From Balanoglossus misakiensis (lineage: Eukaryota > Animalia > Hemichordata), in contig CM082579.2 in the NCBI GenBank assembly GCA_040954595.2, forward strand, positions 1,253,908 through 1,317,907: a stretch of 64,000 nucleotides of DNA, given 5' to 3'. The notes beneath the pieces were generated by a model. That model worked only from the letters and a program-made list of their open reading frames with translations, did not search any database and was not told the DNA's origin. Numbering within the stretch: position 1 is the stretch's first letter; every line of letters begins with the position of its first letter. The translations under genes were made by a program, and so were the position numbers. Below are positions 1,954 to 64,000 of this stretch, in pieces.

Positions 1954-2431
1954 CTACGGTTCAACGGGGCATGGGTCTGTACACACTTCGGGGCCGAGTA
2001 CGGCACAGCAGTAGAATTCACTACAGGGACAGTTTTCAGGTTCTACTCCAGACCCGTTGAGGCCAATCAGTGCATCCAGCAACTGATTTTCTGCTTGTAC
2101 CGATGGATTCATGTCGATCGAGATTTTAACCGGAGTGTCCCTAAAATCACCTTGGTGAAAAAGAACACATACAAAGTGTGAGTTTACATGATTATCAAAA
2201 ACGAGTGTCGCTTGTTTGAAATGAGACTTCAAATATCAAGAGAGTCTGATTTGGAAAATGCGTGACTTAATTTGGGCATTGGTTACGCGACATCGATAGC
2301 GGACAGCTCGCCGGCTCTCCCCTGAGAGAATTGTTAAATCACAGAAACAAACAAATATATATGTACTCACCGAAACACTCGACTGTAGCTATGACGACAC
2401 AGAGAACACCCAGAATGAATACACCCCTCAT
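1954..2431 (-). CDS. Small secreted Cys-rich peptide precursor, paralog A (85 aa, most divergent copy)
   Basis: Coding exons 2431-2371 (MRGVFILGVLCVVIATVECF+G, donor GTGAGT) and 2150-1954 (acceptor tttcaccaag; GDFRDTPVKISIDMNPSVQAENQLLDALIGLNGSGVEPENCPCSEFYCCAVLGPEVCTDPCPVEP*), joined by a phase-1 intron. Non-coding exon 1 ends at 2681. A 3' UTR exon starts at 1760, with AATAAA at 1626-1621. Confidence 0.88.
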
Positions 2432-2760: not shown

Positions 2761-2786
2761 TATTTATTAAACCGACTTGCGTGACA
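2761..2786 (-). promoter_or_regulatory. TGTCACGCA box + TATA-like element of paralog A
   Basis: tgcgtgaca at 2778-2786 (TGTCACGCA on the minus strand), then AATAAATA at 2768-2761. The same arrangement occurs in all seven paralogs. Confidence 0.7.
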
Positions 2787-4027: not shown

Positions 4028-4053
4028 TGTCACGCATACAATACTGTTATAAA
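4028..4053 (+). promoter_or_regulatory. TGTCACGCA box + TATAAA of paralog B
   Basis: TGTCACGCA at 4028-4036 and TATAAA at 4048-4053; non-coding exon 1 ends at 4140 (cag|gtaaat). Confidence 0.75.
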
Positions 4054-4612: not shown

Positions 4613-5235
4613 ATGAAGACCGCATGTGTTTTAGTTTTCTTCTGTGTGTGTGCCGCCATTGCGACAGTTCAATCTTTCGGTAAGTGTTACAGTTCGACAT
4701 GTTTACATTTTGATCACATTTTTCTGCGTTTTGTACGTTTGTGTACTTATCTTTGATTTGACAGACTTAGAACCGTTACTATGATCTACAGAACCTTGCT
4801 ACAAGTATCTATCCAACAAGAATGTATATATAGGCCAGGTGCATGGTTGGTGTCTATTGATGCAACTTTCCCAATCGGTTTTACGTGATATGAGATACAA
4901 TACTGCAGCCCCAGTATGCCTTACATCATTAATGATTATTTCCACAATTAATGAATTCAATTACACGCTGTCAGATTTGATTATAATGTCACAAGTGCCA
5001 TATATTATAGAATGTTTACAGAAAAATATATTCGACTATCGCAGGTGATTTCAGAGATACTCCTGTGAAGATACAAATCGATATGACGCCAAGCAAATCC
5101 TTCCAGGAAGACTTCGTCGACGCGTTGGTCTCCTACAACAACGAAGGTTCAATTGCAATCGATTGTAGCATCTGTCTCCACTGTGTTATGTACGGCTATG
5201 GTGCCTGCCCAGCAGGATGCCCTGGCTGTACTTAA
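4613..5235 (+). CDS. Small secreted Cys-rich peptide precursor, paralog B (85 aa)
   Basis: Exons 4613-4679 (MKTACVLVFFCVCAAIATVQSF+G|gtaagt) and 5045-5235 (GDFRDTPVKIQIDMTPSKSFQEDFVDALVSYNNEGSIAIDCSICLHCVMYGYGACPAGCPGCT*). The 3' UTR intron spans 5249-5661, with an AATAAA run from ~5824. Not in the ORF track. Confidence 0.92.
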
Positions 5236-5372
5236 TTCTTTCCAACAGGTATGTTAGGAGTCACAGCGATTTGTTCCATATTTTAAATGATTGTCAAAAC
5301 ATCATTTTGAACTAAGTGATTAGTTGATTGATTCTACAGCTATGAAGCTTTCTGACTGCATACATAGATGAG

Positions 5373-5581
<209 letters not shown>

Positions 5582-6580: not shown

Positions 6581-6604
6581 TGTCACGCATATACGTTTAT
6601 ATAA
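6581..6604 (+). promoter_or_regulatory. TGTCACGCA box + TATATAA of paralog C
   Basis: TGTCACGCA at 6581-6589 and TATATAA at 6598-6604; exon 1 ends at 6693 (cag|gtaaat). Confidence 0.75.
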
Positions 6605-7063: not shown

Positions 7064-7456
7064 ATGAAGATCGCATGCGTTTTAATTGTTGTCTACTGTG
7101 TCGTCATGTCGACAGTGCAGTCTTTCGGTGAGTACAATTAATAAATTTCATGACGTTTTCTCCGTAAATTTACAACATGGATTGGCGGCGATTTTTATTT
7201 CACATTGGTGAAAATTGTGTTCTTTCATTCAAAATTTTGTACAGTTTCACATTTTTTATACACCGCAGGCGACTTCAGAGATACTCCCACTGAGATAACC
7301 ATCCATTTGACCCCGAAAGCGGATTTCCAGCGAGATTTCATCGATTATCTCATACTCGTGGGAAGTGGTGGTTTTCAGGCGAGCTGTTGCTGCAACAGAA
7401 TTTGTTGCCAGATTTTTGGATATGGGTATTGTCCCGCCGGTTGCCTTCAATGCTAA
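7064..7456 (+). CDS. Small secreted Cys-rich peptide precursor, paralog C (83 aa, 8-Cys core)
   Basis: Exons 7064-7127 (MKIACVLIVVYCVVMSTVQSF+G|gtgagt) and 7269-7456 (GDFRDTPTEITIHLTPKADFQRDFIDYLILVGSGGFQASCCCNRICCQIFGYGYCPAGCLQC*). The UTR intron spans 7471-7827, with AATAAA near 7992. Confidence 0.92.
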
Positions 7457-8935: not shown

Positions 8936-8960
8936 TGTCACGCATTCACATGTATTTAAA
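8936..8960 (+). promoter_or_regulatory. TGTCACGCA box + TATTTAAA of paralog D
   Basis: TGTCACGCA at 8936-8944 and TATTTAAA at 8953-8960; exon 1 probably ends at 9050 (aag|gtacat). Confidence 0.72.
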
Positions 8961-9479: not shown

Positions 9480-11043
9480 ATGAAGACCGCGTGCGTTCTG
9501 ATTGTCATCTTCTGTGCCGTCATTTCGACAGTCCAATCTTTCGGTGAGTACAATCTTGAATCTGCTGTTACGACACGCTGGCCGTTCAGTTCCGAAACAG
9601 GGCAGTGAGCAAATATAGACTAATACTGAATGGCTCGCTTTGGTGAACCAACCAGCGCAGCACGCAACAAAGACGGTCAACAATAGGCACACCACACGTT
9701 ATTTCCTTGCTTATGGAAACTTTTAATTACTACAACTAAACATTGGTAAATATAAAAAGATTGTACACTGGGAAGAAAGCACACAAAAATAAATGACTAC
9801 CTTAAATGTGGCCAGGTGTGGGAAATGAAAGACTAAAGTCTTAGGTTCTGTAGCGCACGACGAACGCGACCAGCACCACGGCAGTCCCAACAGCGACGTT
9901 CAGTCCCAACAACGACGTTCAGTCCGAGTAGCGTTCTGGCACAATTCCCCGGTAGACGGCACGGCTTTCAGACGAATTCCCCCATGAGGTAGCACGACTT
10001 CTGGGCGCGGTTTCCAGACCAGTGCAGCATGAAATATGGCACAGCTTCCAAGTCGGCGAGGAACAGAACAGCTCACTCGGGCAAGTCCAAATTAGTAGCT
10101 ACGCCGCAACACAACGTGCGGGCTTTTTATATGGGGAAAATAATGAATGCACCACACCTGGTCACGCAAATATTCAAATTACGAAAGTAAGCGAAAACAC
10201 ACCTGGTCACAAAACAACAGCAAACTTCTCCTACGTAACACTGCTAACTGCATTACTTTGTATTTTGAGTACGTACTGCCACACATTTGCTGCTTGATGT
10301 TGTCTGTTGTATTTTTTGAGTATATAGCCTACTATGTATGCATGTACTATTTATTTCATTTTCGTATAAAACTGAACAATTCCGCCAAAATTCACCTAGA
10401 CTCATTGAAAATTAACTTTTAGTTTGGAGGCGTGAAAACTCCCATAAGTGTTCTTTTATAAACTTATTAGTCATATAGAAACTTTTTTTTATATATTTGG
10501 TGCCTGTGGATAACACAATACCAAGAACATTACGCCCAGGGTATATTCTCAACGACCAATGGTGTAAACGTTGTATAATCGTCACTGTCTACAACTTGCT
10601 GGTTGATTATTGGTATACATAAACAATCTGATTTGTACTCCCCGCGCCATGTGCTACAGAGCGAATATAGACACTACAATAAGAATTAGTTTATTTGACG
10701 CCCTATTATGTCTACATGACCCATTATGCGTGGAAGACAACACGGTTCGTAGACTTTTATGGGTATAGCAAATTATAAATACTATATGTAAATTTTCATC
10801 TGGCTTGTGTGGGAAGTAACAGTTTTCACAGACTACGTTTCTGTAACTCTAACAGGCGATTTCAAAGATACTCCCGTGGAGATTGTCATCCATATGGAGC
10901 CAAAGAAATCCTTCCAGGAAGGTTTCGTCGATATGTTGATCTCCCAAGGCACCGGTGGGTCAATTGCATCCAACTGTTGCGACCCTTACTGGTGTGTTAT
11001 TTACGGCTACGGTTACTGTCCAGCAGGATGTCCTACCTGTTAA
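9480..11043 (+). CDS. Small secreted Cys-rich peptide precursor, paralog D (83 aa)
   Basis: Exons 9480-9543 (MKTACVLIVIFCAVISTVQSF+G|gtgagt) and 10856-11043 (GDFKDTPVEIVIHMEPKKSFQEGFVDMLISQGTGGSIASNCCDPYWCVIYGYGYCPAGCPTC*). The UTR intron spans 11057-11282, with AATAAA at 11422. Confidence 0.92.
9566..10240. mobile_element. Solo LTR (Gypsy-type, 675 bp) in intron 2 of paralog D
   Basis: Starts TGTTACG and ends CGTAACA (TG...CA with a 7-bp terminal inverted repeat). It is flanked by the 4-bp direct repeat CTGC (9562-9565, 10241-10244) and is absent from the paralogous introns. Confidence 0.8.
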
Positions 11044-12449: not shown

Positions 12450-12474
12450 TGTCACGCATACACATGTATTTAAA
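12450..12474 (+). promoter_or_regulatory. TGTCACGCA box + TATTTAAA of paralog E
   Basis: TGTCACGCA at 12450-12458 and TATTTAAA at 12467-12474; exon 1 ends at 12558. Confidence 0.72.
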
Positions 12475-12701
12475 CTGGCGTTGACACAAGACTCTTCACT
12501 CCTACCAAGGTAATTCCGAAAGAAGGAACTTTCTGTCGACAAAGATCTCCTGTAACAGGTAAATATGCAATCTATACTACCTTCGATTTATGCCTAATGC
12601 AGGCTGCACGTGTTGACGCGATTGATGTCTAGCACCTGTTAGTCTTCGTCGTGACTAAAATCCTCATTGTTTTTTTTTTTCTCCAAAGTTTTCCTATCAC
12701 T

Positions 12702-13052
12702 ATGAAGACCGCCTGCATTCTGATTGTCATCTTTTGTGTCGCCGTTTCGATGGTGCAATCTTTCGGTGAGTACAATTCGTACCTAATTGTCACATTCTGA
12801 AGGTTTTATTTTTTGTGACATCTAAAATGGAAGTGCTTGCATTTGTTATTCCTTTGCCTTGTACAGCTCCGCTAAACGTTATTATATTTCGCCGCTGGCT
12901 TGGAGCCAAGCAAATCCTTCCAGGAAGAATTCGTCGACGCGTTGGTCTCCTACAACAACGAAGGTTCAATTGCAGTCAATTGTTTAAGCTGTATCCAGTG
13001 TATTATGCACGGCTATGGTGCCTGCCCAGCAGGATGCCCTGGCTGTACTTAA
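12702..13052 (+). pseudogene. Paralog E of the Cys-rich peptide family: probable pseudogene (exon-3 acceptor deleted)
   Basis: The signal exon 12702-12765 is intact (MKTACILIVIFCVAVSMVQSF+G). Relative to paralog F, ~120 nt containing the acceptor and GDFKDTPVEIVIH are replaced by 24 nt of filler (12877-12900). The remainder reads EPSKSFQEEFVDALVSYNNEGSIAVNCLSCIQCIMHGYGACPAGCPGCT* to 13052. The best remaining acceptor (12866) gives a shifted frame. Confidence 0.8.
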
Positions 13053-13499
13053 TTCTTTCCAACAGGTATGTTAGGAGTGACAGCGATTTGTTCCATATTT
13101 TAAATGATTGTCAAAACATCATTCTGAACTAAGTGATTAGTTGATTGATTCTACAGCTCTGAATCTGTCTGACCGCATGCATGCACAGACGAGCGTTATA
13201 AAGTTGGACAGGATCAACACTTATGATATTGTTCGCCATTTGTTAAATTAAAGTCAAATCTTCATATTTTCACTATGTAACAATCTTTCCTTTCTAGTGT
13301 TTCATCGATGGAAGATTCTAGAAGATAAAACACATATTCGGTAGAACAATGCAAAGTGCTTCATAACGCTACACACCACAACACCATCTCCAAGAAAGGA
13401 TTGACTAGCGATTTCTTGTGTTCTGTAATTTGTGGAAATAAAGAAAATTATAAGCATAAACGTTTGAATTTGTTGTGCCATATCACAAACGGATCGTTC

Positions 13500-14949: not shown

Positions 14950-15870
14950 ATTGAATCTATCCAAAACTGTATCACTGACATCAAGCAGTGGATGACTAAC
15001 AAATTCCAACTGAATGGCAGTTAAACTGAAGCAATAATAATATCGAGACTATCTGCAAAATCATCCTTAGGCCTTGCCGTCATTTTGGAGATTCCGTGAT
15101 ATTGTTTGCCTCCAGTGTTAAAGACCTAGGAGTCATAATTGACTCCAACTTGAACATGTCTGATCATGTGCAGAATACTTGCAAAGCTGCCTACGCCCAA
15201 CTTAGACAGATAAGCTCTATCCGTCATTTCCTCACTCAACAAGCCACTCAAACTCTCGTCATTTCACTTGTTCTGTCACGCTTAGAATGTTGGAACTGTC
15301 TCCTTTCTAGTTGTTCTAAACAGCTTATAGACAAGTTGCAAAGAGTGCAAAATGCACAGTACATACCAAATCGACAACTCCGCTATTCATCAGATTCTAG
15401 ACTTGTCATCATTCCTAGAGTTTCCACAAAGACATATCCCCTCAGATTCGCACTACCAACTTTCACTAACGCATTGACATGTTCAAAACTTACATGTACT
15501 TGGGCGTCGTATCCACCTTCTTTCCAGCAACTGCTTGGGTAAAAAAAACACGGGGACGCATACACGTGGACTTCCAAATTTAATACGGAAAAAAAAACAA
15601 TTACACGGACGCCTGCGCACTGACCGCACACGCCAGGTCAAATAAAGCGCAATGCGACAAACGAAACTATGAATATGCATTGAATTCATGACAAAGATCG
15701 TTCGCATATATTGGTCCCAAATTATGGAATAATCTTGTGTGTGTGCCTTGATTCCTGTGCCTGTGTTTCAACAAGTCCTCCTCTTCAGTTTACTTGTTGC
15801 CATCCCGTGCCTTGAGCTCTGATTATCAGAGATTATAGGCGCATTATAAATTGTCTTTCTTATTATTATT
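14950..15870 (+). mobile_element. Degenerate 5'-truncated non-LTR retrotransposon (L2/CR1-group LINE), 3' end
   Basis: C-terminal RT-region motifs IQNCITDIKQWM...QLN and VKDLGVIIDSNLNMSDHV...LRQISSIRHFL...LVLSRL...KLQRVQNA, with stops and deletions. The 3' tail gccttgagc...ggcgcattataaat...(TTA)n ends at 15870. Confidence 0.85.
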
Positions 15871-16181: not shown

Positions 16182-16206
16182 TGTCACGCATACACATGTA
16201 TTTAAA
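16182..16206 (+). promoter_or_regulatory. TGTCACGCA box + TATTTAAA of paralog F
   Basis: TGTCACGCA at 16182-16190 and TATTTAAA at 16199-16206; exon 1 ends at 16290. Confidence 0.72.
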
Positions 16207-16743
16207 CTGGCGTTGACACAAGCCTCTTCACTCCCACCAAGGTAATCCCGAAAGAAGGAACTTTCTGACGACAAAGATCTCCTGTAACAGGTAAATATGC
16301 AATCTATACTACCTTCGATTTATGCCTAATGCAGGCTGCACGTGTTGACGCGATTGATGTCTAGCACCTGTTAGTCTTCGTCGTGACTAAAATCAGAGTC
16401 CACAGCATAATTGTGGTTCTCCACTTAGAAATATAAGTTTAGTTCTCGGGAAAATGTATGTCAGTAGAAGTATCCGCAAAATGTTTCCTTTTGTGTCAGG
16501 CTTACCTCAGTCTTTCAAATGCCTGGCCGGCAAGCTCCTTATCAGAAAATGCTCAATTCGTACAATCATATTTATTTGCTCAGACGTCTAATTTGTATTG
16601 AGGAATTACGTCAATAACATTTTGTGTTTAACTTAAATTATGCGCTGTGAGATGGGATTACTGCAGTTGGTTTTGTCTAACTCTAAAAATATATTCATCA
16701 GATATCCTCATTGTTTTTTTTTCTCCAAAGTTTTGCTATCACT

Positions 16744-17188
16744 ATGAAGACCGCCTGCGTTCTGATTGTCATCTTTTGTGCCGTCGTTTCGATGGTGCAA
16801 TCTTTTGGTGAGTACAATTCGTACCTAATTGTCACATTCTGAATTGTTTTATTTTTTGTGACATCTAAAATGGAAGTGCTAGCATTTGTTATTCCTTTGC
16901 CTTATACAGCTCCGCTAAAATTAAGTTTAACTCATTGAAAATCAAGTTTAAGTTTCTAAGCGTGCAAATTTCACAAACTTTGTTTCTGTAACTCTAACAG
17001 GCGATTTCAAAGATACTCCCGTGGAGATTGTCATCCATATGGAGCCAAGCAAATCCTTCCAGGAAGACTTCGTCAATTTGTTGATCCAAGGCAGTGGTGC
17101 TTCAACTGCAACCGATTGCAGCAGCTGTACATGGTGTCAGATTTACGGCTATGGTTACTGCGCACCAGGATGCCCTGGCTGTAGTTAA
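16744..17188 (+). CDS. Small secreted Cys-rich peptide precursor, paralog F (83 aa)
   Basis: Exons 16744-16807 (MKTACVLIVIFCAVVSMVQSF+G|gtgagt) and 17001-17188 (GDFKDTPVEIVIHMEPSKSFQEDFVNLLIQGSGASTATDCSSCTWCQIYGYGYCAPGCPGCS*). The UTR intron spans 17202-17406, with AATAAA near 17539. Not in the ORF track. Confidence 0.92.
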
Positions 17189-18272
17189 TTCTTTCCGACA
17201 GGTATGTTTTTAAATGATTGTCAAAACATCATTCTGAACTAAGTGATTAGTGACTAATTCTACAGCTCTGAATCTGTCTGACCGCATGCATGCACAGACG
17301 AGCGTTATAAAGTTGGACAGGATCAACACTTATGATATTGTCTGCCATTTGTTAAATTAAAGTCAAATCTTCATATTTTCACTATGTAACAATCTTTCCT
17401 TTCTAGTGTTTCATCGATGGAGGATTCTAGAAGATAAAACACATATTCGGTAGAACAATGCTTCATAACGCTACACACCACAACACCATCTCCAAGAAAG
17501 GATTGACTAGCGATTTCTTGTGTGCTTTAATTTGTGGAAATAAAGATTATGCATAAGTAGAATTAACCGGCTGAGACTTGTTTCAATGTGACATATAACT
17601 TAATAGTCTAAGAGGATGTTGATAATACACAGAGGGGTGCACGGTATTGGGTACAACACCATACTTTAAGGAATCGAACAAAGATCTGCAAATGATAGAC
17701 GGATGGCGTGCCTCCCAAATGTGTTGGGGCTGGAGGCCTTCGCGAGTCTCGTCGGGGTGTCGGTTGATGTGAAGAGACAGTACTCATACAATCCACTTAC
17801 GCAATCAGTCACCTGTTTGATTTCGTGAGTTAATTCGTTAAAAAGACACCGAACATTTTTTGATGTAGTATGACGCAATTAGCATTTTATTTCTTAACCT
17901 TACAGAGATGATATCAACATTTCATCAAGGGATATGAATTCCAGGTGCATCAAACTCTAGGGGTCGTCATTGACTAAGGTCCTGAGAAATCGCCAATATC
18001 TGAAATATAAATTGCATAAGTGTCAATTAGTCTGGGCATTCGTATATTCTTAACTTTGCGATTTCTGGAAAAGCCTGAAATATTTATAATATTTTCTGGT
18101 TTGATGATAATCAGTCAATTTGGCCATAAAATTTTAGTGTATCGTCTATATGTATCGTTATACTGGATCGGGAGTGACCGTGCTTTCATAGGCGATTAGA
18201 AGCGGGACGAGAGCTTTGACGCTTCCGAAGTTTCACATGCAAATCTTGAAAGAAACAGAAATCCCCAATACC

Positions 18273-18657
18273 TTAATGACAGATGCAGCCTGCTGGACAC
18301 ACACCGTAACCATGAACGATACAAGACGCTTTGTTGCAGCAATCAACTGCAGCTGTGCCGGCACTTCCCACCGTCATCAACTCTTCAACGAAGTCCTTCT
18401 GGAAGTTTACGTCAGGGGTCATATGAATGACAATTTGAACAGGCAGATCTCGGAAGTTTTCTGTTGAGACAGGAAATAATTATGCAGCCAGTTTTATTTG
18501 ACCTGTTTCGATTCGATTCTCTCTCTCTCTCTCTCTCAATACAAAGGTTAAAAACTCGTCTTTTATAAAAGAATACAAAAGTTTCGCGAAACTTACCAAA
18601 AGATTCCACCGTTGCCACGGCGACGCACAATAATCCAAAGACAAAAACAGATTTCAT
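18273..18657 (-). CDS. Small secreted Cys-rich peptide precursor, paralog G (82 aa)
   Basis: Exons 18657-18597 (MKSVFVFGLLCVAVATVESF+G nt|gtaagt) and 18460-18273 (ENFRDLPVQIVIHMTPDVNFQKDFVEELMTVGSAGTAAVDCCNKASCIVHGYGVCPAGCICH*). Exon 1 ends at 18792. A probable UTR exon starts at 18074, with AATAAA at 17891-17886. Confidence 0.9.
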
Positions 18658-18885: not shown

Positions 18886-18909
18886 TTTTATACCCAGGTG
18901 TGCGTGACA
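18886..18909 (-). promoter_or_regulatory. TGTCACGCA box + TATAAAA of paralog G
   Basis: tgcgtgaca at 18901-18909 and ttttata at 18886-18892 (TATAAAA on the minus strand). Confidence 0.75.
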
Positions 18910-20998
18910 GCCACATAATTCCCGTGCAGCGATCGCGTTGTGCGTGATTTTATTGCACGTCGATCATCCTTGTCAGTTGTTACTTAATAGAAATGTCTAG
19001 CACATTATCTAACATCATCATGTGTCACGTTTTATGTTCAATTTATCAAAATCCATGATCATTTTCGTTCCACACAAATGTTTTTGACGTACGCTCTTAC
19101 TCCCTACACGCCAAGTCATTTCAGTTGATCAAAGAACCGGTGACTTACGATGCATGCCATGAAAGAAACTTTTAAATTTATTGACAACAGGACCGTTAAA
19201 TGCAACTCACAGAAGCTGCAATTGCTTTCATTACTTTCAATAGTGCTCCTCTTAAACTTAGATTGGTTCATTTAAGTAACTTTAATAGGGGGTATACACA
19301 TTCGAACTATCAATCCCTGAAACCCCTGATTATGACTGCACAGTTGCCTCACCCGTTTAAGATAGATGACTCAGTATACGACTACTCACAAGTTATAATA
19401 TTGTCATTTTCCTGCTTAATGTATACATATGTGTATGTACATATGATTTAAATGGTTTAATCATTAGGTGTTATAAAACTACCGTGTAAAACGCAAGGTC
19501 ACACATAAATATAGACATCGTGTTATATCACTGATGTATGCTGCATCAGACATATAGGTGGCGTCATATTGGTCTGATAACACAGCAAGATATTTTGTGA
19601 CAGCTGATTGCGCACAGAACACAGGTGACATGCCTTTGGCTGAAGTCGTGGTATTTCCTCTGATTCTCGTCTTTGTCACGGTGGTTGCCATAGCTATGAC
19701 CCTACCAGAATTTCACAGAAGATGGAAATTATTAAGTGACCGGCAATTTTTCTGATTACCGGTTGACGGTAAGTCATCAATGTGCTTTGCGACTTTTTTT
19801 GTTGTTCTGCCAAAATAAAAACATGTGACTGAGCATTGCTTGGTTTTTGAAGACAATGCAACCTGTTGTAAGTTTTCACGAAATCATAAAACCCACGTAT
19901 ATGAAAAGGTCATCTTGGAGGCTGAACCAATCGAACAGCCGGAACCGAAGATATACCAGTATCCAAACGATGTAGAATGGTTTGGCGCCCCCAAACATGT
20001 TCAATCCTATTTCAGTCGACGTCGGTTCCTTGAATAGGCGTCGATGAAGACACAACTTCAATGACATAGAATCAACTGTTCAAACCTCCGCTGATACAAA
20101 GCCGAAGAGCGTATTGGGATTTTTTTTTGTTTGAAAAGTGGACTTGCTTTGAACGATGTTCTCTTCATTGTTGTCAGCGCATTTACATTGTGATGGCAGC
20201 TGTAACCTCGTCAGTATTAAAGCGACATACAACATGTCCTGTCATCATAATTTAAACCAGTTGTCTAAGATAATGTACCCATTACTAACTTGAAGCTTAG
20301 TGCCTAACACCTCAAAACGATAACGTTAATATTGGATGTGTAAATTTAATTAATGTGGGTTCAAAGTGGTCCGACAAACCACATTAGAACCAAAAATTGG
20401 GCGGCGTATCTAAAAGGCCGCTATGTCTATTGGCATAGACGTGGTCTTAAGGAATTTCTTTTATACTGTATCTTCTGTTGACATTGACACTGCGGTTCTA
20501 TGGCTTCTTCACGTTCAAGGTGAAGAAATCTGGAAGGTCGAGGTTGCCCCTCCTTATGCGACGTCATAAACTACCTTGTTCATATTATTGGTGTTATTCA
20601 ATCGGTAGGGTGTTTCTCATGAACAATTTCGTCATCGTTTGATAATAAAATGACGAGTTTTATCACATAAATTTAGGCGGTGATAGATACCGGATATTTA
20701 TACGGATATCGAATTTAAAGTGTGGCCTGTTGTGCCCTGTGACTGGACTGTGAATCGTAGCGGAGCTCCGTGTGTGTGTGTGTGTGTGTGTCATTGAGGT
20801 GGGAGGGTCCCTATCAACGCATCATATGAATATTCATAAGGTTACTATGTGCGTGTTGAACTATTCAGTTTGTGAGTTACCTTTGTAACAGCTGTCAAAC
20901 GATCGACGTGCTGTGCGTAGTACGGCTCCACCCTGTACTCATCATAACCTAATTAATAACAAATTGATGTAAATTTCATATCGAGCTTATTTTTAACC

Positions 20999-23900
20999 AT
21001 GGCGAGCACAAAACGTCACGTTTTCAGCAGTAATTTATTCAGTCATCGGAAAAGCTTCAAAGTGAAGGCATTGCAGGCGGAATTCGAAGATATGAAGCCG
21101 ACAAGCGCTGAGTCGAAACAAACCATGCCAAGTCTGATCATGGAAGACGGACTTGTTAACGGCGTTAACGGACACCCCGAAAATTTAAGAATACCAGCGA
21201 AATATCCGATGAAGAAGGTTTATTTTGTCACAGAAGATACAGAGTGTAACGACGAGGCCGACGAAAACAGAACTTTGCGTTTCGTTGGTAGACGCGGTTT
21301 TAAGTCGACTAAAGCTGAGGAAGATATAATCAGCGTCAACGGAACCGTCCGCGGGGTTAAAAATCGTGTCCGAGCTGGAGTGACACAGTTTGAATTTCGG
21401 CCGTTACTTAGTACATCATCAAGGGTAAGAACTTGTTTGAATAATTTTATCGCACGTTACAGGTTAATGCCCCTTTAATCTGTTTTAATTATGCAAAAGA
21501 AAAAACAATGTTTCATGCATATATATGACAAAAGGATAGTTTCTCAGTAAATAGTAACCACGGAAAATGTGCATACGACTTTTTTAATAGTAAGTTTTTG
21601 GCATTAAGTCGTCCGTTTTGGAATCTGTAACCCACATGTAGATTTCATGTGATTATTTAGTTAATGTGCGAAAAAAATGCCACAAAGTACGTACTGTTGA
21701 CATGGTGTCTCGATCATTATCACTGTGTGTACAAAATAAATGCTATTTCTGTTGCACATTGAACCTTGTCCAACACTTAACTGTACTGCAGGTTCAATAT
21801 TGGCAGATACCTCTATTGATCAAGTAATTGTTATCACCTGGCCAGATGATACTGCTCGTGGTGTCGTGTGTACACAGACGCGCAACGTGGACGTCTATCT
21901 ATTGTTATGACGATGACGTTATCGAGAGATGGGCCTTGAGAATTTAGCAATACATGCCAAAGTTGAACTTGTAGTCTGCACGTACTATTTAAGCTGCTTT
22001 TGAAATTGGGCGCATATCGTATACACGGATGTCTTTAACTACATTAATTTCACTCTGAAATAATCTCCGTATTGACAACAAATATACAAGATAACTCGTA
22101 TGATATGCCACGGGGTTATATCAGTATCATTTATAATAGTTGTTCTTAATAATTTGAACGAAAATGCGCACTTTTTAAAAAAGCACATGAAAAGTCCTAG
22201 TATACTATTATACTACGCCATGTAATTGTTGAAACACATGACTGCAACTTGCGAGTTTTTTGGTGTCAAGATTTCACATAAATCGTAGGTTTTTGGATTG
22301 AGTGACCGGGGTTTAGCCATTGTGCTTCAGGACATAAATTAGGAGAAACAATTAAGAGGAAAATACTTTAATATCTTTAGTTAAATCCTGTTTTCTGTGC
22401 TTCATTGGTTGCATGTAACTATCTGCGTTTTCAATAGTGGGAGGTGACAGTTAAGACTTAGAATGAGTCACAAAAAAGTATTGTTTAGTATTAACTTGGA
22501 TACCTTTAATGTGCTTGAGTGATCAAAGACCCTTTTAAAGCCCTAAATCCGATTGTTGTGGCTTTAGTATGATGTAACTGTGTGAATAGATCTGCCTTTG
22601 AATACAAAATGAACACCCAACTTCCGAAATGCGGTTTGTCATTTGAGGTTTTATGGCTGCGCCCAGGTTTTGGAGGGAGGGGTGCATTGCAGGTGACAAA
22701 TAACTGGACCTCGGGGGGAGGGGCATTTCTGGGTTTGGCTTTTTTGGTATATTAACCATGGGGTGTTGGTCATTCTTATTCTAGTGACACAACAGAGTGA
22801 GTCCAAATGTATGTACTTTGTGAGTTTGTTCCGGTTGGGATAATGAATAGGTGACCTCTATTTGTGTGTCTACAGTCTAGCTCTCACAGTCTATTGATTA
22901 CACAGTCAGTAAGCTTTGATGGTTCTCTGCCTATCATTTGCAGAAATTAACACTTTTCAAATTTAATTTTTTTAATTGTCCCAATACATATGCTATGATT
23001 TATGTAAATTTGATACAAATTTCGAACTTTTAAAATAAAAATAATGACAAAGTTTGATATCTACAAAAAACAAACAAACAAAAGAACAACACACCCCTCC
23101 CCCCCCCCCCCACACACACACACACACAAATTACATGCAAACTGAAGCTTATCTGGTGAGCTGAAGCCTGGTAACAGTAACAACATATTTTTGTGTAAAA
23201 TCAGTCTAATTGGCAGGGAAGCTAGGCCACATGCAGGGCCATATGGAACTTAGGTAACACTTTGTTTTGACCAATCTACTGGCGACATTATGAATTGTAA
23301 GAGCATTGGTGAGTAACCCACTTGAGTAAAGCAGTATAATAAAAAAAGGCAGCTAGATTGTTTGATTTACTCTTTGACTCAGCTGCAATATTTGGACACA
23401 CCCTAAAAATACACCACTCAGAGCGACACAACCTTGGCGGAATACTTGAAGCAAATGGCACATATTGACATTTATGCCAGAATTTATGATTAAAATGGAA
23501 GTCCAATAAAATCCTTTTGTCAGCTGGTCGATCAATAAAAAGGTAATTTTCTTCCCAGGTAGAAAGAGTGAGGTAGGTGCCAGTTGGTCTGGGGGCAAAG
23601 GTCAAATCTGCCCCTTCTGAGAATTTTTATGTGTTTATAATAGCATTAGCTTAAATCATGTAATACTGTGGTCTAGTCGTACAGCTAGCATGAACTACTT
23701 AAAAATGGCCTGCATGCCCTCAGGAAACATAAACTCTGTGTGGTTTTGTTATTCATATACTTTTATAAGCTCTTTGAAAAAGACATCAGATTTTTTATAT
23801 CTCAGACTTCAGCAACAAAAGCGTATTCTTGTAGAATGCTGGGATGAAGAAATATGAGCATCCTTCCTGTACCGTTGGTTTGCTTTAGTTGCAGGAATTG

Positions 23901-26900
23901 GCTCATATCTCTTTATTAACTTTATCGCAACTGAATGGCTAGACTACCAAGTACCTTAATAAGTTAGCTATTACAAACTTGAGGGTCAAACCTGGTTGCA
24001 ATGAAAGAGTTGAAATCCATAAAATTGGTGGTGGCTTTATATAGTTTCTATGATATGAAGGAATAAATCGTGTATACTGTATCCCAAATCTGAGACGTTC
24101 ATATCTAATGAAATTGATTTTATTTCTTTGTTCCAGAACGCCAGAAAAGAAGAAATTGGCAAAATCATCATTTACACTACCAGTATGAGTATTATCAGGG
24201 GCACTTATGAAAAATGCCAATTTGTGAAGAAAATCTTTCAGAATCACAGAGTGAAGTTTGAAGAGAGGGATGTATACTTGAACAAACACAATCAGAAAGA
24301 TTTACATGAGAGGCTGGGCAAGAATGTTCCAATAACAGTACCACAAGTTGTCATCGATGGAGAAATATTAGGGGTAAGTCAAACAATAAGAAAGATGTTT
24401 AGCACCGTGTATTGATTTAAAATATGTTCTAGAAAGTCTCTCAGAAAGCTGTCTGATCTATATAGGTATCCAGGTCAGTTTAGTCAGATTTCATTGATTA
24501 GGCCATTCTTAGCTATCCAATATTATTGTACATTGAAAGCCTGCCACGGTTTCCATGGATATTATCAATTTTCACATAAAATTTTGTGCATTTACTTCCA
24601 GTACTTTAAGTTGATCAGCGAGCTTTGGGAAGTGTACCAGTAATTGATTTCATGTGGTTAAAAATATCCATCTATTAATGAGAATATGAAAATAGCTGAC
24701 AGAATCATGTTTCGTGACATTCCTGGTAAAAGTGGGTGATGGAGTAAATGAATTGTCATGTTTGATGAGGTAAATTGCCTGAGATGACGTCATCACCACC
24801 TGCTGTTGAAGTAATACCATCCTGGCAACATGAATTGACTCTGATATTCTGAATTCTGAATTACATCGTAAATATTAAAAGAAAAGCAATTGACCAATCT
24901 GTGTTCCCAATTAACAGTGACGATGTTTATATCAAACTAGAAGATACACTGAGTAATGATTACTGAATATTCCAGCACTCATTTCCGTGAGCAATTTGAA
25001 GTTTCCCTGAAGCTATCCGACTGTCGCCACTGACATGAATCCTTCAACTCCACTCTGTTGCCATGGTAGTTTCAAAACAGACAATGCGACTGACGCATGA
25101 ATTTTTTATTTGGCACAGGACTGTTATGTCGTGTTTCAGTTGGGGAAGTGTGCATATTTCCCGGTTTAGGGAGCATTCGTTTTTTACAGGGAGGGGGGGG
25201 GGGCGGTGGAAATCAGGGGGGGGTTTACTTTTACAAAGCAGTTTTTAGGGGGGGACAAATTTTATAATCAAGGGATTATTATATAGGGACTGAAAGGGGG
25301 GGACTTGAAAACTTTGACGGCTAAATATTTATTTTGAGTCCACAAAAATGCAGTTTCGCGTCCTTTATTTTACAAAATTTTCTAATGTGGGAGGGGGACA
25401 CCCCCTCCCACACCCACCCCCTCCATTCATCAACACCTTTCAATCATTGACTGGTTTATCTAGTGTCCCAGGTCAGGGGACTTGCCCCCACCCCATGATA
25501 ACTTTGAGCGGCGACGTTAATTTGCTTTTGCTGGGTTCATTAAAATGCAGCTTTGAGCTCTGTATTTTATAAAATTTTCTTACGTGGGAGGGGGACACCC
25601 CCTCCCAAACCCACCCCCTTCAATTCTCGGTTTACAATGTCTCCCAGCACAGAATACAAATACTTAAAAAATAAAAACAATGTTCAGTTTTACTACCCAC
25701 TGATGAGGGGAAACATCGGTTTCAAATTCTTTTCATGGGAGCGCTGTGTCCATGATAAGTTTAATCCGGTGGATAAACTTTTTTTTTTTTGGGGGGGGGG
25801 GGGTCACATTTTAGAAAAGTAATTTCCAGGGGGGGTTGCCTTTTACATTTAGTCGGCGACTCAAATTCCACCGGCCCCCCCCCCCTCCCTGTAAAAAACG
25901 AATGCTCCCTTACCTGCTGGGTAAATCATGTCACAATTCACACCTACAAATCATTGAATGTCATTTTCTATGTGATGTTTGCTTGCTTTCCAAACAAGTA
26001 ATCATGGGAAGTGAATTTTGGTGACAGGTGAATTACAAATATTGACTTTAATACACAAATTTATCACCTTTACTGTTGTCATTCTTATAGCGCTGAACCA
26101 TATTTTTGAGAAATGTCACAGAAAGGAAATAAAGAAACCTTGAAAAGTGGGAAGTGACCCCACTTTTGAAACAGGCAGTAATTTCATCACAATAACATAC
26201 ATTCTAATTAAGAATATAAAACTTAATTTCTACCTCAGTATAACTTGCAATTTATGAAATTATCACCCATTGGTATTTTATGAGCTATGACTATTTCTCA
26301 ACCCAGTACTTAAAAGTCTAACATTGCTACTGTCCTTATTAAGTGGTGACTTTGATGATTAGTAGCATTTTTCAGTGACGTGCTGTTTCCACGGTAACAA
26401 CAGAGTAGTACATAGTATTGCTTTTCTGGAATTTTCTAGTTCAATAAACCAGAAGCCTATACAGTTGTCATTAAGCAGGAAAATGGGGTTTAAGTGGCAT
26501 TTGAATTGAAAGACTTGGTTGATATATTAAAATTATAAGTGCCTTTTTGTATTTCTCAAGGGTTTGGCTATAATCAAAAGCAGTGTGTGTGGAAGTTATT
26601 GAAATGGTCTTCAAAGCATTAGTCTGCTAAGAATACCTGTAGTAGTTGAAGCTCACATATTTAGGTCCCATTTGGTATACGTATACATATATACCAGTGG
26701 AGTCCTTTTAAAAATAAAAATTGAATTGTTGCTATGGTGTGGCTGATTTCAGTGAATTGAACATGGTGAATTCCAGTCCTTCTAACAATACATGCAGCAA
26801 CAAAAGATCACCTGACCAACATAAGTCATCTGGTACAAGTTGGTTCAATTTGCAAAAAGCCAGCTAGGCCAAATAATCAATCAGACATGTTACAGTCCTG

Positions 26901-29900
26901 GTGAACTTTATTCAGAGTCGTCTGTCCAGTTCATGACCTTCATCCACCTGTAAGGTGAACCCACTTCAGTCCAGTATAGACACTTGAAATTCAAACTTTT
27001 AAGGAGCTAATACCGTGTGACCAGAATTTCAAGGTATTCATCCCACAAAGCAATCACCAGACAGTTATGTTTGAGTGACATTCAAGGTTGGGGGAGACTT
27101 ATAGAGGGGAGTTACAATGTAGGTCTTGATTTTGGTACTTCAAATTCACTTTGTAATATAGCAAGACAGGTCAGATAATTGGGAACACAGATAATTCACC
27201 TATTTTCATGAGTTTTATTTCTGCTGAATTTTAAGAAAAGTATTTTAAGTTCTGATGATCTACCAAGAGTAAGTTAACCTTTAACCATGTTTAACGAGTA
27301 GAGCAGTGCCACAGGTCACTGCGATAAGTGGTCCCTTGGTATTTGCCATGACTATACACCTTTGGTATTTTGATTGTTTTACAGTACTTCAACTATTGTT
27401 AGATTGTCAATACTGCCATTGCATTGTAAGCTGTGTAATGCTGTAATAAGTTTTACAGTGGCTGCTGGCAGTTGTAAACAGTTAAAAAGTGGAAGTTCAG
27501 AATGTTGGGGGGGGGGGGGTTGTTCTGTTGCGGTTTTTGAAATTTGTTGAAGCTAGGCTATCCTTGAATCATACCCCACCTACACTTCAGCAATATTAAT
27601 GTCTCACAGATTCATAGAAACTTAGAAGGCAAGATACATCTTTAATGTTGCCCGCCTACAATTGCTTGCATCATCATTGCATGACGTTATATAGAAATGA
27701 TACTGATGGGATGAACACGACAAACCATAATTACATTGTAGCTAATAATAGCAATGTTGCTGTCAATAAATTGCACTTAGTGAAAGGTCATATCTATTAT
27801 TAATTAATACCCTCAAGGATATTACCTTGAACACAAAAGTGTAAATTTCAAGCCATTTTGGGTGAATTCAATCATTAACAATGATGGTGTGTATTGTCTC
27901 CATGTAATATTGTGTTGTTCTATATAATGATTCATGTGAATACTTGATATCGGATGGTACAGATGATCTGGAGAACAGTATTCAGCGAGTTTTATAACGA
28001 CTACAGTCAATATACAAAACAAAAACACTGGAAAAACATAGCCGACAGCTTAAAATGTACAGGTGCAATTTAAATGTTTCCATTCATCCTTTAAATAAAA
28101 ATATAAAAATATCAGGTAAAAAACCTTGTGTATTTTCTGTTTTGATGCATATATGCTGGCAGTGAAATTTTAATACACGATGCTGTATGAAACTTACATG
28201 CATGTTTTTGAATATTTAGGTCAGTTTGAAAATAAAGATTCTTTACAACATGTACAAATTAATGTATGTGACTGAAGATATTATACTGCAGCTTCACAGG
28301 GCAAACACTTGGACTTGCCAATTCACATCATTCAGATTACAAGCAGGAAGATAGTAGAGCTATAAAATTGTGTTTTTAGTTGTCAAGACTGAACATGATA
28401 TGGGTGGGGTACCATAATAAATGGTCGGCTGTAACTGACACCATTCCTTCCTGAATACTAGTCCACTGCGATTAATTCTGCCTACTGTGTGAGATCACAG
28501 GATGGTGTACGTACGGGGTCGGGGTGACACACTGTCGCGCATAAAATAGGCCGTTTTAGACACTACCAGAGGGGCAAAATTAGTCCCTGTCTTACTCCCC
28601 CCCCCCCCCCCCAACGATTTTGGTTGCTCAGCAACAGTAGCAAATTTACTTACAGGGAGTTTCTTATTTAACTATGTAGAAAAACATGGATATTATGTCA
28701 TATTTTACCGTTCAATTTTTTTCCTTTCTGCAAATGCAAATATGTACATGAATTTCAGGTAAATATCTTGAAATGTTGATATTTTCATATCTGCCATCAA
28801 AGGCATGTGTATCTGTATTGACCATTCTTTCAGTAATTTGAGCAGGGTGGTAATGGGTTGGCTGCCCCAGGCTGGTCAGGGGTTAAAGGTCAGGAGTTGT
28901 ATAGCAGAGAAGCTGCCATTTGTCAAAAAAGTTAACAATCCTTGTTTGACGGGAAGAATGGTGTTCGTGTACTAGATCTCTCCAGTAGCTGCAAAATGTA
29001 CATGTAATCATTCAAGTGCTGACAGCTACACTGAATGATTTAAATTCAATTGATGCCTATATTAATTGCCTCGACTATCTATCTAATATCTATCTCTCTA
29101 TCTATCTATATCTCTCTATCTATTTATCTATCTGGCTTAGTAGCTACATGTAGCTAGCTAACTTAGCCCATGTATGCAGTGATCCATATGGTGACCCTTG
29201 GCTCACTTTGTTTATGCTTTCTATGACAGTGTTTTGAAGATTTCTTGGGCAATTTATAAGCAGAAGTTTATGATGTACTATTTGGGTATACCGTGTCCTA
29301 TTTCACCACAACTATACTGTCAGGCTCAGTCAACTGAAAATGAATATTCTCTACTCTGTTATGATGATAATGATGAATAAATTCGTCCAGGAAAACAGGA
29401 AATTGAAATGTTTAAACCACTATTACAGGCAAGGATATAGCTGACTTTATTGACAGCATATATACAATGCAACTTTTACCTTGACCCTGAATACATCAAT
29501 AATCTATGGCAGTCTAGTCTTGTAATAGGAGTTTCATTTTAATCAGTCCAGCATAACGTCTCAATTGCCTTTGTGGACTTCTGAAATTAAAACGCCCACT
29601 ATGTACATTGTGTGATTATTAATCATGCCTGTAATATTCCTGCACTGGAGACATTCACTGATTAAAGTCTTATCGGGACATAAATTATTAAATTGACTGA
29701 ATATTTATCACTCAGTCACTCATATTGCTTGATATTCAAGAATGACGCCTTTTTTGAATATTTGCATGATTTGTGTCTTGACTAACGAGCGCAAATTGAC
29801 AGAAGTTTCCAGATAAGGCTGAAAGTGAGTGAATTCTCACATGACACTTCTCATTTTATATTTTAATTGAACTTCTGTTTTTTTATTATTTTACATGTTC

Positions 29901-50800: not shown

Positions 50801-51960
50801 GATTGATTTCATTACAGCAACCTATCAAACTCTTAAAAGTCTAACAGAGCAGGAACAGCAGTTATCGCCGCCAGACTGATTGCACTGTTTTGATTCTGGA
50901 CATAACTATACCCTCACTGTTCTAATTCTTGAGAGGAGATGACAGTCAACGTGAGATCGTCTACTCTCGAGTCTGAAACCAGTGCTTTAATGTAGTAGGT
51001 GGTTTTTCAGATAACTCAGGGTGCAAAGTTCAACTGCGAAGAAGGCAAACATGATTTTTGAAACTTATGAAACAAGAAAAGTCAGCGAATAAATATGCTG
51101 AAACGTTGATAAATTCCAAAATTAACATATTAAAGATTTATGTATGCATATGCACTTGACGTGGGTGATTTTAAGGGAGATTCCTTTACAGCGTTGAAAG
51201 AAATACTAGTTCAAACTGGGGAAATCCCCAGGATCAACCCACCCTCTGATAAGGATATCATAAATCTTTTATCTGATCTTGGAATTTGTAGACCAGGGAC
51301 CCAGATACCACAGGAGTACATCCTTTGACCCAAGTTATCAAGAAAGAAATGACCAGAATATAAAAAAGACTAGAGCATGGCTTTTTTCCTAACAATTCCC
51401 CTAAAGAAAATGCTGACAATGTGCTTTTTCTTGTATGGCTATTCGACTTTCTTGTATGGATATTTGACAGTATCTGTGTGTTATGACCAACATGGTCAGA
51501 TGGAATGTTGTCTTCGGATGATTGCTTAACAACTGACCTTTGACCTGACAATGTTAACAGGTGTCATCTCTCTCACAATTAATAAATATGAAAGTTCAAC
51601 CCTTCAAACAATCATATTCACATTTTAGTTCAATCAAAACTTTTCACAAAACAGGATTCTGACCTTATTTTTAAAGGAATTATTACACCTATTTTTATTT
51701 CATTTGAGTGTTAAACATTCATTTAGTAAAATAACCATTTTATCCAAATCAAGACATTATATTTCGGCTATGGTTTTCTATAATTAATGATTCATTAATA
51801 AAATCGTCGAAATTCATGTCCCTCAGAAAAAATCTCAATTCGTATTTGCCGCGTATAGACCACGTGACATGACGTCATTGGGGGAAGTCGTTGCCAGTAT
51901 GTAAACAGTGATATCGTTGCACAGCCTAGCCCAAAGCGAGAGTCCCGCGTTTCCATCATT

Positions 51961-52095
51961 ATTATCAAACGATGCGTCGTCGGGGGCTGTAAAAACACTA
52001 TCCGTAGTGTACATAGATTTCCGAAAAGCAAAGGACTGAGAGAAAAATGGGAGCGCTTCATACAAAACGGCCAAAAGGTCCATACATCACCGTAA
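51961..52095 (+). pseudogene. THAP zinc-finger N-terminus remnant (Kolobok transposase)
   Basis: IIKRCVVGGCKNTIRSVHRFPKSKGLREKWERFIQ...*: C-x4-C, HRFP and W of the THAP signature. No ATG at the expected start; truncated. Confidence 0.75.
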
Positions 52096-62007: not shown

Positions 62008-62462
62008 TTTGATTTTCGCAGAAATGTGGCGTTGTCCAATCAACGAAGTCGTTATCACAGACTAGCCAAGCACAAGCCATTTGTTCTTTACAATGTGATT
62101 GGCTAATCTTGATCAGGAAATGGACAATACGAAATGGGGCACACAAGCGGGACAACGAGTAAACACGGTGAAATTTAACAACTTTAAGAACACACAACTC
62201 ATTCTTTTTTAAAATAAAAATATGCTTATGATATTTTTGTATATCGTAAGACTACATTTTGCTCCAAAAGGTGACTTATTAGACGGCGAGTGTAACTGCC
62301 CTACACCTATCAGAATATGGACTATTCCACGTTCGCAAGTACAATATACTTTTGTTTTCAGCTTGCTGAAATATACACGCAAAACACGGAAATCAAGGCC
62401 ATTCAGTACGTGATTAAAGATAAAAGCACCTACAAACCCACTTGTTGCTCACTGCCAGAAAT
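62008..62462. promoter_or_regulatory. Short bidirectional promoter between CKAP2-like and HHIPL
   Basis: About 455 bp between the divergent ATGs, with CCAAT at ~62036 and ATTGG at ~62098. Confidence 0.55.
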
Positions 62463-63789: not shown

Positions 63790-64000
63790 GTATGAACATT
63801 CACGTTTCATCTGCTATTCTGAATCTACAAAGTACATGTACAACCATATGTGTAGCTATTGTTATACACGCACAAACATGAATTCCATATTGGCATCAAC
63901 TTGCCTACAATTAACCTGGACGTGTCTTTGATTAAAAGCATTGGGACCTTGACAAAGTATGAATAAAAACATCACAATATACATGAATTCAATTTATCAC

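What the first reader, a model, noticed from the sequence alone, without database searches (positions are those of the whole stretch)
5045..5163. Conserved structured pro-region with no basic cleavage site; Asp/Asn precedes the first core Cys in 6 of 7 copies
Seen in sequence: the pro-region is more conserved than the core. It has an alternating hydrophobic stretch (V-x-I-x-I-x-M/L-x-P), an acidic amphipathic segment (FQxxFVxxL) and a Gly/Ser linker. No K/R lies at the linker-core junction in any copy. The residue before the first Cys is N (A, D, E) or D (B, F, G); in C that aligned position is itself an extra Cys. Inference: the pro-region is a beta-alpha folding, targeting or enzyme-recognition leader (RiPP-like logic). 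The core may be released by a non-convertase protease, for example legumain/asparaginyl endopeptidase after Asx or cleavage after the linker Ala. Alternatively the whole ~63-aa chain is the mature product.
Basis: partly seen in the sequence, partly recalled or inferred. Interest (0 to 1): 0.72.

Follow-up and report, generated by a model that had tools for sequence, protein, structure and literature searches.

The report
Acorn-worm secreted disulfide peptide family
Seven neighbouring genes (one broken), likely from an acorn worm, encode small acidic cysteine-rich peptides with a predicted secretion signal and no relatives found; both ends are conserved while the middle changes fast, so they are probably defence or recognition molecules that likely work as whole chains rather than being cut at the Asp/Asn.

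Summary
The stretch is the front of coding exon 3 of copy B, one of seven tandem paralogues (A–G) for ~85-aa secreted-type peptides. The best hits of the HHIP-like gene ~44 kb away are hemichordate. Conservation is bimodal, not pro > core: residues 1–15 identity 0.69, core C-half 0.59, linker 0.25, core N-half non-Cys 0.09. K/R is missing from the whole C-terminal half (2 of 191), not just the junction. 'Asx in 6 of 7' shrinks to 2–3 of about 4 independent lineages: A has Pro at the aligned site, and D/N flips inside a hypervariable window. Copy E lacks the acceptor and the strand motif. No homologue was found among 1.84 billion representatives. New: one 9-mer, a Pax-like half-site, sits 6–11 bp before the TATA-like box in all 7 promoters. 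Best reading (0.45): an orphan family of secreted, two-module disulfide peptides acting as intact chains in defence or recognition. Release of the core by a non-Asx protease gets 0.3, a legumain/RiPP-type leader 0.1. Cleavage, expression and function are untested.

The parts
5045..5163 (+). Copy B N-terminal module plus linker (the finding): conserved residues 1-15, predicted helix 17-33, Gly/Ser linker, Asp39 at 5161-5163
5164..5235 (+). Copy B Cys core (C-x2-C-x2-C-x7-C-x3-C-x2-C) and stop; predicted helix 43-49
5158..5193 (+). Hypervariable window (codons 38-49), holding 10 of the 13 base differences between B and E, including the Asx codon
4613..4679 (+). Copy B signal-peptide exon (coding part of exon 2), phase-1 donor; signal peptide read by eye, no predictor run
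4028..4036 (+). Copy B promoter 9-mer TGTCACGCA, 11 bp before a TATA box; non-coding exon-1 donor near 4140
1954..2150 (-). Copy A exon 3 coding part (most divergent; C-x-C-x4-CC-x7-C-x3-C)
2371..2431 (-). Copy A signal exon, coding part
2778..2786 (-). Copy A promoter 9-mer
6581..6589 (+). Copy C promoter 9-mer
7064..7127 (+). Copy C signal exon, coding part
7269..7456 (+). Copy C exon 3 coding part (8 Cys: CCC-x3-CC-x7-C-x3-C-x2-C)
8936..8944 (+). Copy D promoter 9-mer
9480..9543 (+). Copy D signal exon, coding part
10856..11043 (+). Copy D exon 3 coding part (CC-x4-C-x7-C-x3-C-x2-C)
12450..12458 (+). Copy E promoter 9-mer
12702..12765 (+). Copy E signal exon, coding part (F-like)
12903..13052 (+). 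Copy E exon 3 remnant (B-like); splice acceptor and first 13 codons missing, so probably a broken, mosaic copy
16182..16190 (+). Copy F promoter 9-mer
16744..16807 (+). Copy F signal exon, coding part
17001..17188 (+). Copy F exon 3 coding part
18273..18460 (-). Copy G exon 3 coding part (CC-x4-C-x7-C-x3-C-x-C)
18597..18657 (-). Copy G signal exon, coding part
18901..18909 (-). Copy G promoter 9-mer

Best explanation
These are seven tandem paralogues (six intact) of an orphan, likely acorn-worm family of acidic disulfide peptides that are predicted to be secreted and most likely act as intact ~63-residue two-module chains in defence or recognition, not as cores cut out at the Asp/Asn. Shown in sequence: shared exon plan, signal-like exon, an invariant Phe at the end of exon 2, purifying selection on residues 1-15 and on the C-terminal half of the core, a fast-changing linker and core N-half, even cysteine counts, one shared promoter 9-mer. 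Inferred: signal peptidase cuts before that Phe; the strand-like N-terminus and the helix pack against the conserved C-terminal half of the core (or against partner chains) and template disulfide formation; the variable window (short helix 43-49 and the residues before it, Asx included) is the exposed specificity surface, diversified by duplication and gene conversion. Cysteine gains and losses suggest the pairs 41/43-60/61 and 38/39-45, with 40, 46, 54, 58 paired among themselves. The shared Pax-like promoter site would put all copies in one secretory tissue, possibly the pharynx. Being acidic, they would bind a target or aggregate rather than lyse membranes by charge.
For: Both ends are constrained and the middle is free: pN/pS 0.39 (1-15), 0.61 (helix), 0.80 (linker), 0.81 (core N), 0.33 (core C) among B,C,D,F,G. 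Six of the first 15 columns are invariant in 6 of 6 intact copies and the Phe ending exon 2 in 7 of 7, strong constraint for a piece that would be discarded (inference). Exon-3 length is nearly fixed (61-64 aa). No cleavage motif is invariant. Cys counts are 6,6,8,6,6,6,6 and change in pairs. B vs E: 10 of 10 changed codons are non-synonymous, 9 of 13 base changes in 33 nt (p=0.005), 59 of 60 bases identical after the stop. E groups with B by exon 3 and with F by promoter; D and F are identical over codons 1-15. The 9-mer occurs 7 times in the window, once per gene (0.45 expected), and is the only 9-mer shared by all seven gene units. Precedent for a retained N-terminal module: big defensins (PMC6805989 abstract). 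Hemichordate epidermis is highly secretory (PMC13554239 passages).
Against: No expression, protein or activity data. The two AF2 models are low-confidence (pLDDT 65 and 60, pTM 0.32 and 0.34), show no strand and give no sign of a compact single domain. A Gly/Ser linker between an acidic front part and a Cys core is the usual look of a cleaved propeptide, and proguanylin shows that a folded, templating pro-part can still be cut off (PMC5570944 passages). Ala-x-Asx-Cys is kept in 5 of 7 copies. The B/E excess of replacements involves a probably broken copy; pN/pS above 1 in the recent clade is also seen in the core C-half (1.11) and rests on few, non-independent changes. The defence role is by analogy only. 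The 9-mer matches only the 5' half of the published Pax9 site.
Confidence: 0.45

Rival explanations
1. Cleaved propeptide, proguanylin-like: the N-terminal module templates folding and keeps the core latent; a non-convertase protease later cuts in the Gly/Ser linker (for example after the conserved Ala) and the ~23-residue core is the active peptide.
For: Signal-pro-core order; acidic front part (net -3 to -4 in 7 of 7); flexible, poorly conserved linker (0.25); Ala three residues before the aligned Cys in 6 of 7; all cysteines lie in the core. Proguanylin body templates the hormone tail and is then cleaved (PMC5570944 passages).
Against: No invariant site; A lacks the Ala; invariant residues right at the predicted N-terminus and near-fixed length suggest more than a spacer. 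No guanylin family hit in Pfam.
Confidence: 0.3
2. One reading: the N-terminal segment is an enzyme-recognition leader, the core is released by legumain/AEP after Asx and tailored (for example Tyr/Trp halogenation), RiPP-style.
For: Asx precedes the first Cys in 6 of 7 copies, 3 of about 4 lineages (p~0.01). Conserved-leader plus variable-core is the RiPP pattern (PMC6514808 passages). Each intact exon 3 has 1-4 Tyr; enteropneusts accumulate halogenated aromatics (PMC6315191, search listing only).
Against: Aligned position is Pro in A and Cys in C; D/N flips between B and E; 3 of 6 sites are Asp, while legumain is described as Asn-specific, lysosomal and needing a flexible substrate (low-pH Asp cleavage is recalled, not from a call); P1' would be a disulfide Cys (inferred); no follower sequence for AEP cyclisation. 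Pfam finds no protease or halogenase in 353 of 353 frames of 55 codons or more in the window, which is weak evidence because animal tailoring genes need not cluster and short exons are missed.
Confidence: 0.1
3. Water-borne signal or gamete-recognition proteins, or metal-binding/structural mucus proteins, rather than defence peptides; the chain stays intact.
For: Acidic or neutral charge in all copies, unlike cationic antimicrobials; rapid change in one window also fits recognition proteins. Small acidic disulfide-rich pheromones of Aplysia and Euplotes are recalled as precedents (no call).
Against: No homology or expression evidence; a secreted location with paired Cys gains and losses favours disulfides over metal binding (inference).
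Confidence: 0.15

Closest known systems
Big defensins (molluscs, horseshoe crabs, amphioxus)
   Same: Secreted two-module chain: conserved N-terminal module, flexible linker, three-disulfide C-terminal module; charge can be anionic (PMC7203481 passages); N-terminal module is functional (PMC6805989 abstract).
   Different: No sequence match; no separate prodomain with a dibasic site; no intron at the start of the Cys module; Cys spacing variable; big defensins are reported absent from Ambulacraria.
Proguanylin / prouroguanylin
   Same: Structured pro-part in front of a small C-terminal disulfide peptide that ends the chain; pro-part templates folding, then is cleaved (PMC5570944 passages). Lack of a dibasic site there is recalled, not from a call.
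   Different: No Pfam or PDB sequence match; 3-4 disulfides in the core instead of 2; no Cys in the front part; multi-copy diversifying family.
Conotoxin-type precursors and other animal signal-pro-core cysteine-rich peptides
   Same: Conserved signal, variable Cys-rich end, tandem diversification (PMC6514808 passages). D and G begin with CC-x4-C-x7-C, the spacing recalled for alpha-4/7 conotoxins (recalled, probably convergent).
   Different: No basic site before the core; the front part is more constrained than the signal exon (pN/pS 0.28-0.39 vs 0.49-0.53); core C-half conserved; no sequence match.
AEP/legumain-matured plant RiPPs (cyclotides, butelase substrates)
   Same: ER signal, conserved N-terminal region, three-disulfide core, an Asx next to the core.
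   Different: There the Asx motif is C-terminal to the core with a follower; here Asx is N-terminal, not invariant, and the core ends at the stop codon.

Membership tests
Big defensin | Phase-1 intron at the 5' end of the Cys-rich module | tested here: not met
   Front part and core share one exon; the phase-1 intron follows the signal peptide; feature from PMC7203481
Big defensin | Prodomain ending in a dibasic site before the mature chain | tested here: not met
   No dibasic pair in 5 of 6 intact exon-3 peptides; the KK in D is at 16-17 and not conserved
Big defensin | beta-defensin pairing Cys1-5, 2-4, 3-6 and fold | tested here: inconclusive
   Paired gains and losses suggest Cys2-Cys6 in B numbering; models are low-confidence
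Guanylin family | Sequence similarity to the precursor family | tested here: not met
   No such Pfam family at E<=1 in 6 of 6 intact peptides; no PDB sequence hit
Guanylin family | Pro-part templates folding of the C-terminal peptide | not testable with these tools
   Needs refolding with and without the front part
Convertase-processed Cys-rich peptides (conotoxin-type) | Basic site before the mature core | tested here: not met
   0 K/R in 75 linker residues; feature recalled
Convertase-processed Cys-rich peptides (conotoxin-type) | Signal-pro-core order with conserved signal and variable core | tested here: met
   only the N-half of the core is hypervariable
AEP-matured RiPP | Asx motif C-terminal to the core with a follower peptide | tested here: not met
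   Cores end 0-4 residues after the last Cys at the stop codon
AEP-matured RiPP | Invariant Asx at the cleavage position | tested here: not met
   Aligned position D,C,N,N,D,D in B-G and P in A
RiPP (general) | Conserved N-terminal leader and hypervariable core | tested here: inconclusive
   Residues 1-15 conserved, but so is the core C-half
RiPP (general) | Dedicated tailoring enzymes acting through the leader | tested here: inconclusive
   None in 353 frames of the window; the cluster starts 1.9 kb from the window edge, no genome is held, and animal tailoring genes need not cluster
RiPP (general) | Post-translational modification and leader removal in vivo | not testable with these tools
   Needs MS of native peptides
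Cationic membrane-active antimicrobial peptides | Net positive charge | tested here: not met
   K+R 2-4 vs D+E 6-11 in 6 of 6 intact exon-3 peptides; cores -4 to +1

The most novel reading that the evidence does not exclude
An acorn-worm family of leader-directed peptides: the strand-helix front part is a docking leader for host tailoring enzymes, the Tyr-rich core is halogenated and released at Asx by legumain, and the genes are switched on together through a Pax1/9-type site in the filter-feeding pharynx; copy E, by a cryptic in-frame acceptor just before its core, would be a natural leaderless version. This would be a host-encoded RiPP-like defence system in a deuterostome.
Probability: 0.07. 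Interest if true: 0.85.

Novelty: new variant of a known kind. Interest (0 to 1): 0.45.

Why it matters
Secreted peptide effectors of hemichordates are nearly unstudied: my searches of the held library listed no paper on such a family, and big defensins are reported absent from Ambulacraria. An orphan, diversifying family with variable cysteine frameworks on four fixed cysteines gives a concrete candidate for acorn-worm mucosal defence or recognition and a possible new small disulfide scaffold. The shared promoter site makes tissue of expression directly testable. The more exciting legumain/RiPP reading is not supported by the sequence.

Tried and rejected
Homologue searches: word-index search with the 7-sequence alignment, 0 of 59 candidates at E<=0.1; with copy C alone, no candidate; both limited to proteins of about 26-112 aa. 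HMMER over 1.84 billion representatives gave 2 hits at E<=0.001; both are long repeat proteins (InlB-type B-repeat; LRR plus repeats) whose scores are sums over 7 and 12 weak stretches, rejected. A distant relative of a 62-column profile can fall below this threshold, and small genes may be unannotated in related genomes. JGI metagenomes: 1 of 244 stretches, an 11-residue match in a GC-rich, bacterial-looking contig L001, rejected as chance. ESM Atlas: best feature scores 0.76 and 0.80, leads only. Pfam: only EMG1 at E=0.043 for C, below cut-off; NCBIfam 0 of 7. PDB sequence: latrophilin-3 lectin-domain stretch E=0.29 and alstotide E=0.22, chance level; A and F none. Fold searches: best Z 2.2 among 48,161 chains for model 1, no Foldseek match for model 2; the models are low-confidence, so this shows neither a new nor a different fold. 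Homodimer job: no answer, no support and no evidence against. Sequencing runs: no RNA holder listed. No genome held, so copies outside the window could not be sought. One search was an unrelated-protein comparison with no bearing. NF-kB-like sites: none in the promoters (motif recalled). Literature search on the 9-mer returned mostly unrelated papers with single occurrences (listing only). Earlier findings of the scan: nothing relevant. Idea that Asx39 is the N-cap of the core helix: not supported, as both models start the helix at 43 and residue 42 is the more cap-like position (D, N, N, S, S in 5 of 7). Cryptic acceptor in E: inconclusive (see Noticed in passing). No supplements were read.

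Full report
What is there. The window is animal DNA. The long exon at 62469-63365 has its best hits in HHIP-like proteins of Ptychodera flava (63%), Glandiceps talaboti (54%) and Saccoglossus kowalevskii (51%), against 29-36% for all other rows, so the source is most likely an enteropneust hemichordate; the species was not determined. Between 1954 and 18909 lie seven paralogous genes, A and G on the minus strand, B-F on the plus strand. Each has a non-coding first exon, a second exon coding a 20-22-residue hydrophobic signal-like peptide (read by eye) that ends in Phe in 7 of 7, a phase-1 intron, a third exon with front part, linker, Cys core and stop, and an intron just after the stop. A profile search of all six frames finds these seven and no more. 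The finding's coordinates are the front part and linker of copy B.

Copy E is broken. Its acceptor and first 13 codons are replaced by about 24 unrelated bases. Its exon-3 remnant groups with B (support 1.0) and its promoter with F (0.74), so it is a mosaic. D and F are identical over codons 1-15 yet differ in the core. B, D, E and F form one recent clade, so the seven copies amount to about four independent lineages (A, C, G, BDEF).

Checking the observation. Identity over the six intact copies is 0.69 for residues 1-15, 0.43 for 16-28, 0.25 for the linker, 0.29 for the six residues before the anchor Cys46 (0.09 without Cys) and 0.59 for the 13 residues from it. Front part against whole core is 0.57 vs 0.47 (p=0.14); against non-Cys core columns 0.57 vs 0.35 (p=0.007). 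pN/pS among B, C, D, F, G is 0.39, 0.61, 0.80, 0.81 and 0.33 for the same five segments; with A it is 0.28, 0.64, 0.82, 0.65 and 0.50 (synonymous sites near saturation, pairs not independent). So both ends are held and the middle is free. The strand motif is exact in 5 of 6 intact copies and has strand periodicity (p=0.002-0.08); the FQxxFVxxL motif is exact in 5 of 7, but its helical moment does not beat shuffles (p=0.23-0.43). K/R is absent from the linker (0 of 75) and almost absent from the whole C-terminal half (2 of 191 non-Cys residues); the peptides are simply acidic (K+R 2-4, D+E 6-11).

The Asx. It precedes the first Cys in 6 of 7 copies as stated. Four cysteines are invariant (40, 46, 54, 58). 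On that frame A's first Cys is an extra one and the aligned residue is Pro, and C has Cys, so 5 of 7. Per lineage this is 3 of 4 (p~0.01) or 2 of 4 (p~0.11) at the linker's own Asx frequency. Between B and E, 59 of 60 bases after the stop are identical, but 10 of 13 exon differences fall in codons 38-49; all 10 changed codons are replacements, among them D39N; 9 changes in 33 nt has p=0.005. E is probably broken, which weakens the selection argument. The Asx thus lies at the edge of the fastest-changing window. Ala three residues before the aligned Cys is kept in 6 of 7. Legumain is described as lysosomal, Asn-specific and dependent on substrate flexibility (PMC9604545, passages); three of the six sites are Asp and the next residue is a Cys inferred to be disulfide-bonded. 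Butelase reads an Asx motif C-terminal to the core (PMC6514808, passages); these cores end at the stop. Pfam finds no protease or halogenase in 353 of 353 frames of 55 codons or more; the neighbours are GRXCR, a LIM protein, a THAP domain, CKAP2 and HHIP-like. This is weak evidence, since animal tailoring genes need not cluster.

Cysteines and fold. Counts are 6, 6, 8, 6, 6, 6, 6. A lacks both the Cys at 41/43 and the one at 60/61; A and C alone have Cys at both 38/39 and 45. This suggests those two pairs, with the four invariant cysteines pairing among themselves (inference). AF2 on alignments of 7 and 6 rows gives helices at 17-33 (or 17-30) and 43-49, no strand, pLDDT 65 and 60, pTM 0.32 and 0.34. 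The helix of the front part is supported; the strand and any contact between the modules are not shown.

Relatives. None found: sequence; families; PDB sequences; Atlas. The two HMMER hits are repeat artefacts. Distant or unannotated relatives are not excluded.

A shared promoter site. TGTCACGCA occurs exactly 7 times in 64 kb, once per gene, in the gene's sense, against 0.45 expected and 0 of 100 shuffles reaching 7. It lies 6-11 bp before a TATA-like box and is the only 9-mer shared by all seven gene units of 1.7-3.2 kb, coding exons included, and by A, B, C, G alone; random sets of four segments share such a 9-mer in 4 of 1000 draws; promoter identity between deep lineages is only 0.41-0.50. 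The motif was spotted by eye first, so one search's expectation overstates significance; one search is the fairer control. [quoted passage not shown] Pharyngeal expression is a lead only; other Pax factors, or AhR-type factors on the other strand (recalled), fit too. The site does show that these are real, probably co-regulated genes.

How it most likely works. Signal peptidase likely cuts before the invariant Phe, leaving about 63 residues. The constrained N-terminal 15 residues and the constrained C-terminal half of the core likely pack together or on partner chains and template the disulfides; the variable window forms the exposed surface that sets specificity. I favour an intact product (0.45) because no cleavage motif is invariant, the very N-terminus is the most constrained part, and chain length is nearly fixed. 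Big defensins are the working analogy for a retained N-terminal module (PMC6805989, abstract), but membership fails on intron position and dibasic site, and they are reported absent from Ambulacraria (PMC7203481, passages). A proguanylin-like route, template first and cut later in the linker (PMC5570944, passages), is the main rival (0.3). Legumain/RiPP logic gets 0.1; pheromone, gamete-recognition or structural roles 0.15. Defence or recognition is inferred from tandem birth and death, mosaicism and the hypervariable window, and from the secretory hemichordate epidermis (PMC13554239, passages); nothing here tests it.

Novelty and score. Searches of the held library for the core motif and for hemichordate secreted or antimicrobial peptides (listings only) showed no paper on this family; subscription journals and supplements were not searched. 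The kind of system (signal, conserved front part, variable Cys core, tandem array) is well known in animals; the family, its framework switching on four fixed cysteines and its front module appear new. Novelty: new variant of a known kind. Interest 0.45.

Noticed in passing
window 2778-2786 (-), 4028, 6581, 8936, 12450, 16182, 18901-18909 (-): The same 9-mer sits 6-11 bp before the TATA-like box of all seven genes although flanks have diverged; Pax paired-domain half-site-like.
   Followed up: yes
window 12974-12976: Broken copy E has an AG in frame with its core two bases before the Asx codon. Score 3.8 bits, within the range of the real exon-3 acceptors (1.9-7.5), but only 7 pyrimidines of 16 (real sites 9-15), and out-of-frame AGs at 12867 (5.4) and 12924 (3.6) come first; 2 of the 19 training sites were probably mis-set; G has the same AG naturally. 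If used, E would make a core without the front part. Inconclusive.
   Followed up: partly
window 12690-13130 vs 16732-17260 and 4960-5320: Copy E is a mosaic: promoter, signal exon and intron are F-like, exon-3 remnant and 3' intron are B-like. An assembly artefact cannot be excluded.
   Followed up: partly
window 10820-10902 vs 16965-17047: D and F are identical over codons 1-15 and nearly so in the adjoining intron end while their cores differ; looks like a gene-conversion tract.
   Followed up: partly
window 1957-2030 (-): Copy A's core resembles the end of the rhamnose-binding lectin domain of latrophilin-3; profile E=0.29 only, absent when A is searched alone.
   Followed up: partly
window 20960-32790, 37681-39934, 51868-52092, 58900-61271, 62424-63928: Neighbouring genes: GRXCR-type glutaredoxin, a LIM-domain protein with a weak DUF4592 hit, a THAP domain, CKAP2-like, HHIP-like.
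   Followed up: no
window 5375-5581, 2439-2561: ATTG microsatellite (52 copies) in B's 3' intron and a 31-bp x4 repeat at the acceptor of A's signal exon.
   Followed up: no
window 15030-15540: Frame resembling the end of a LINE reverse-transcriptase ORF between E and F (resemblance recalled, no Pfam hit).
   Followed up: no
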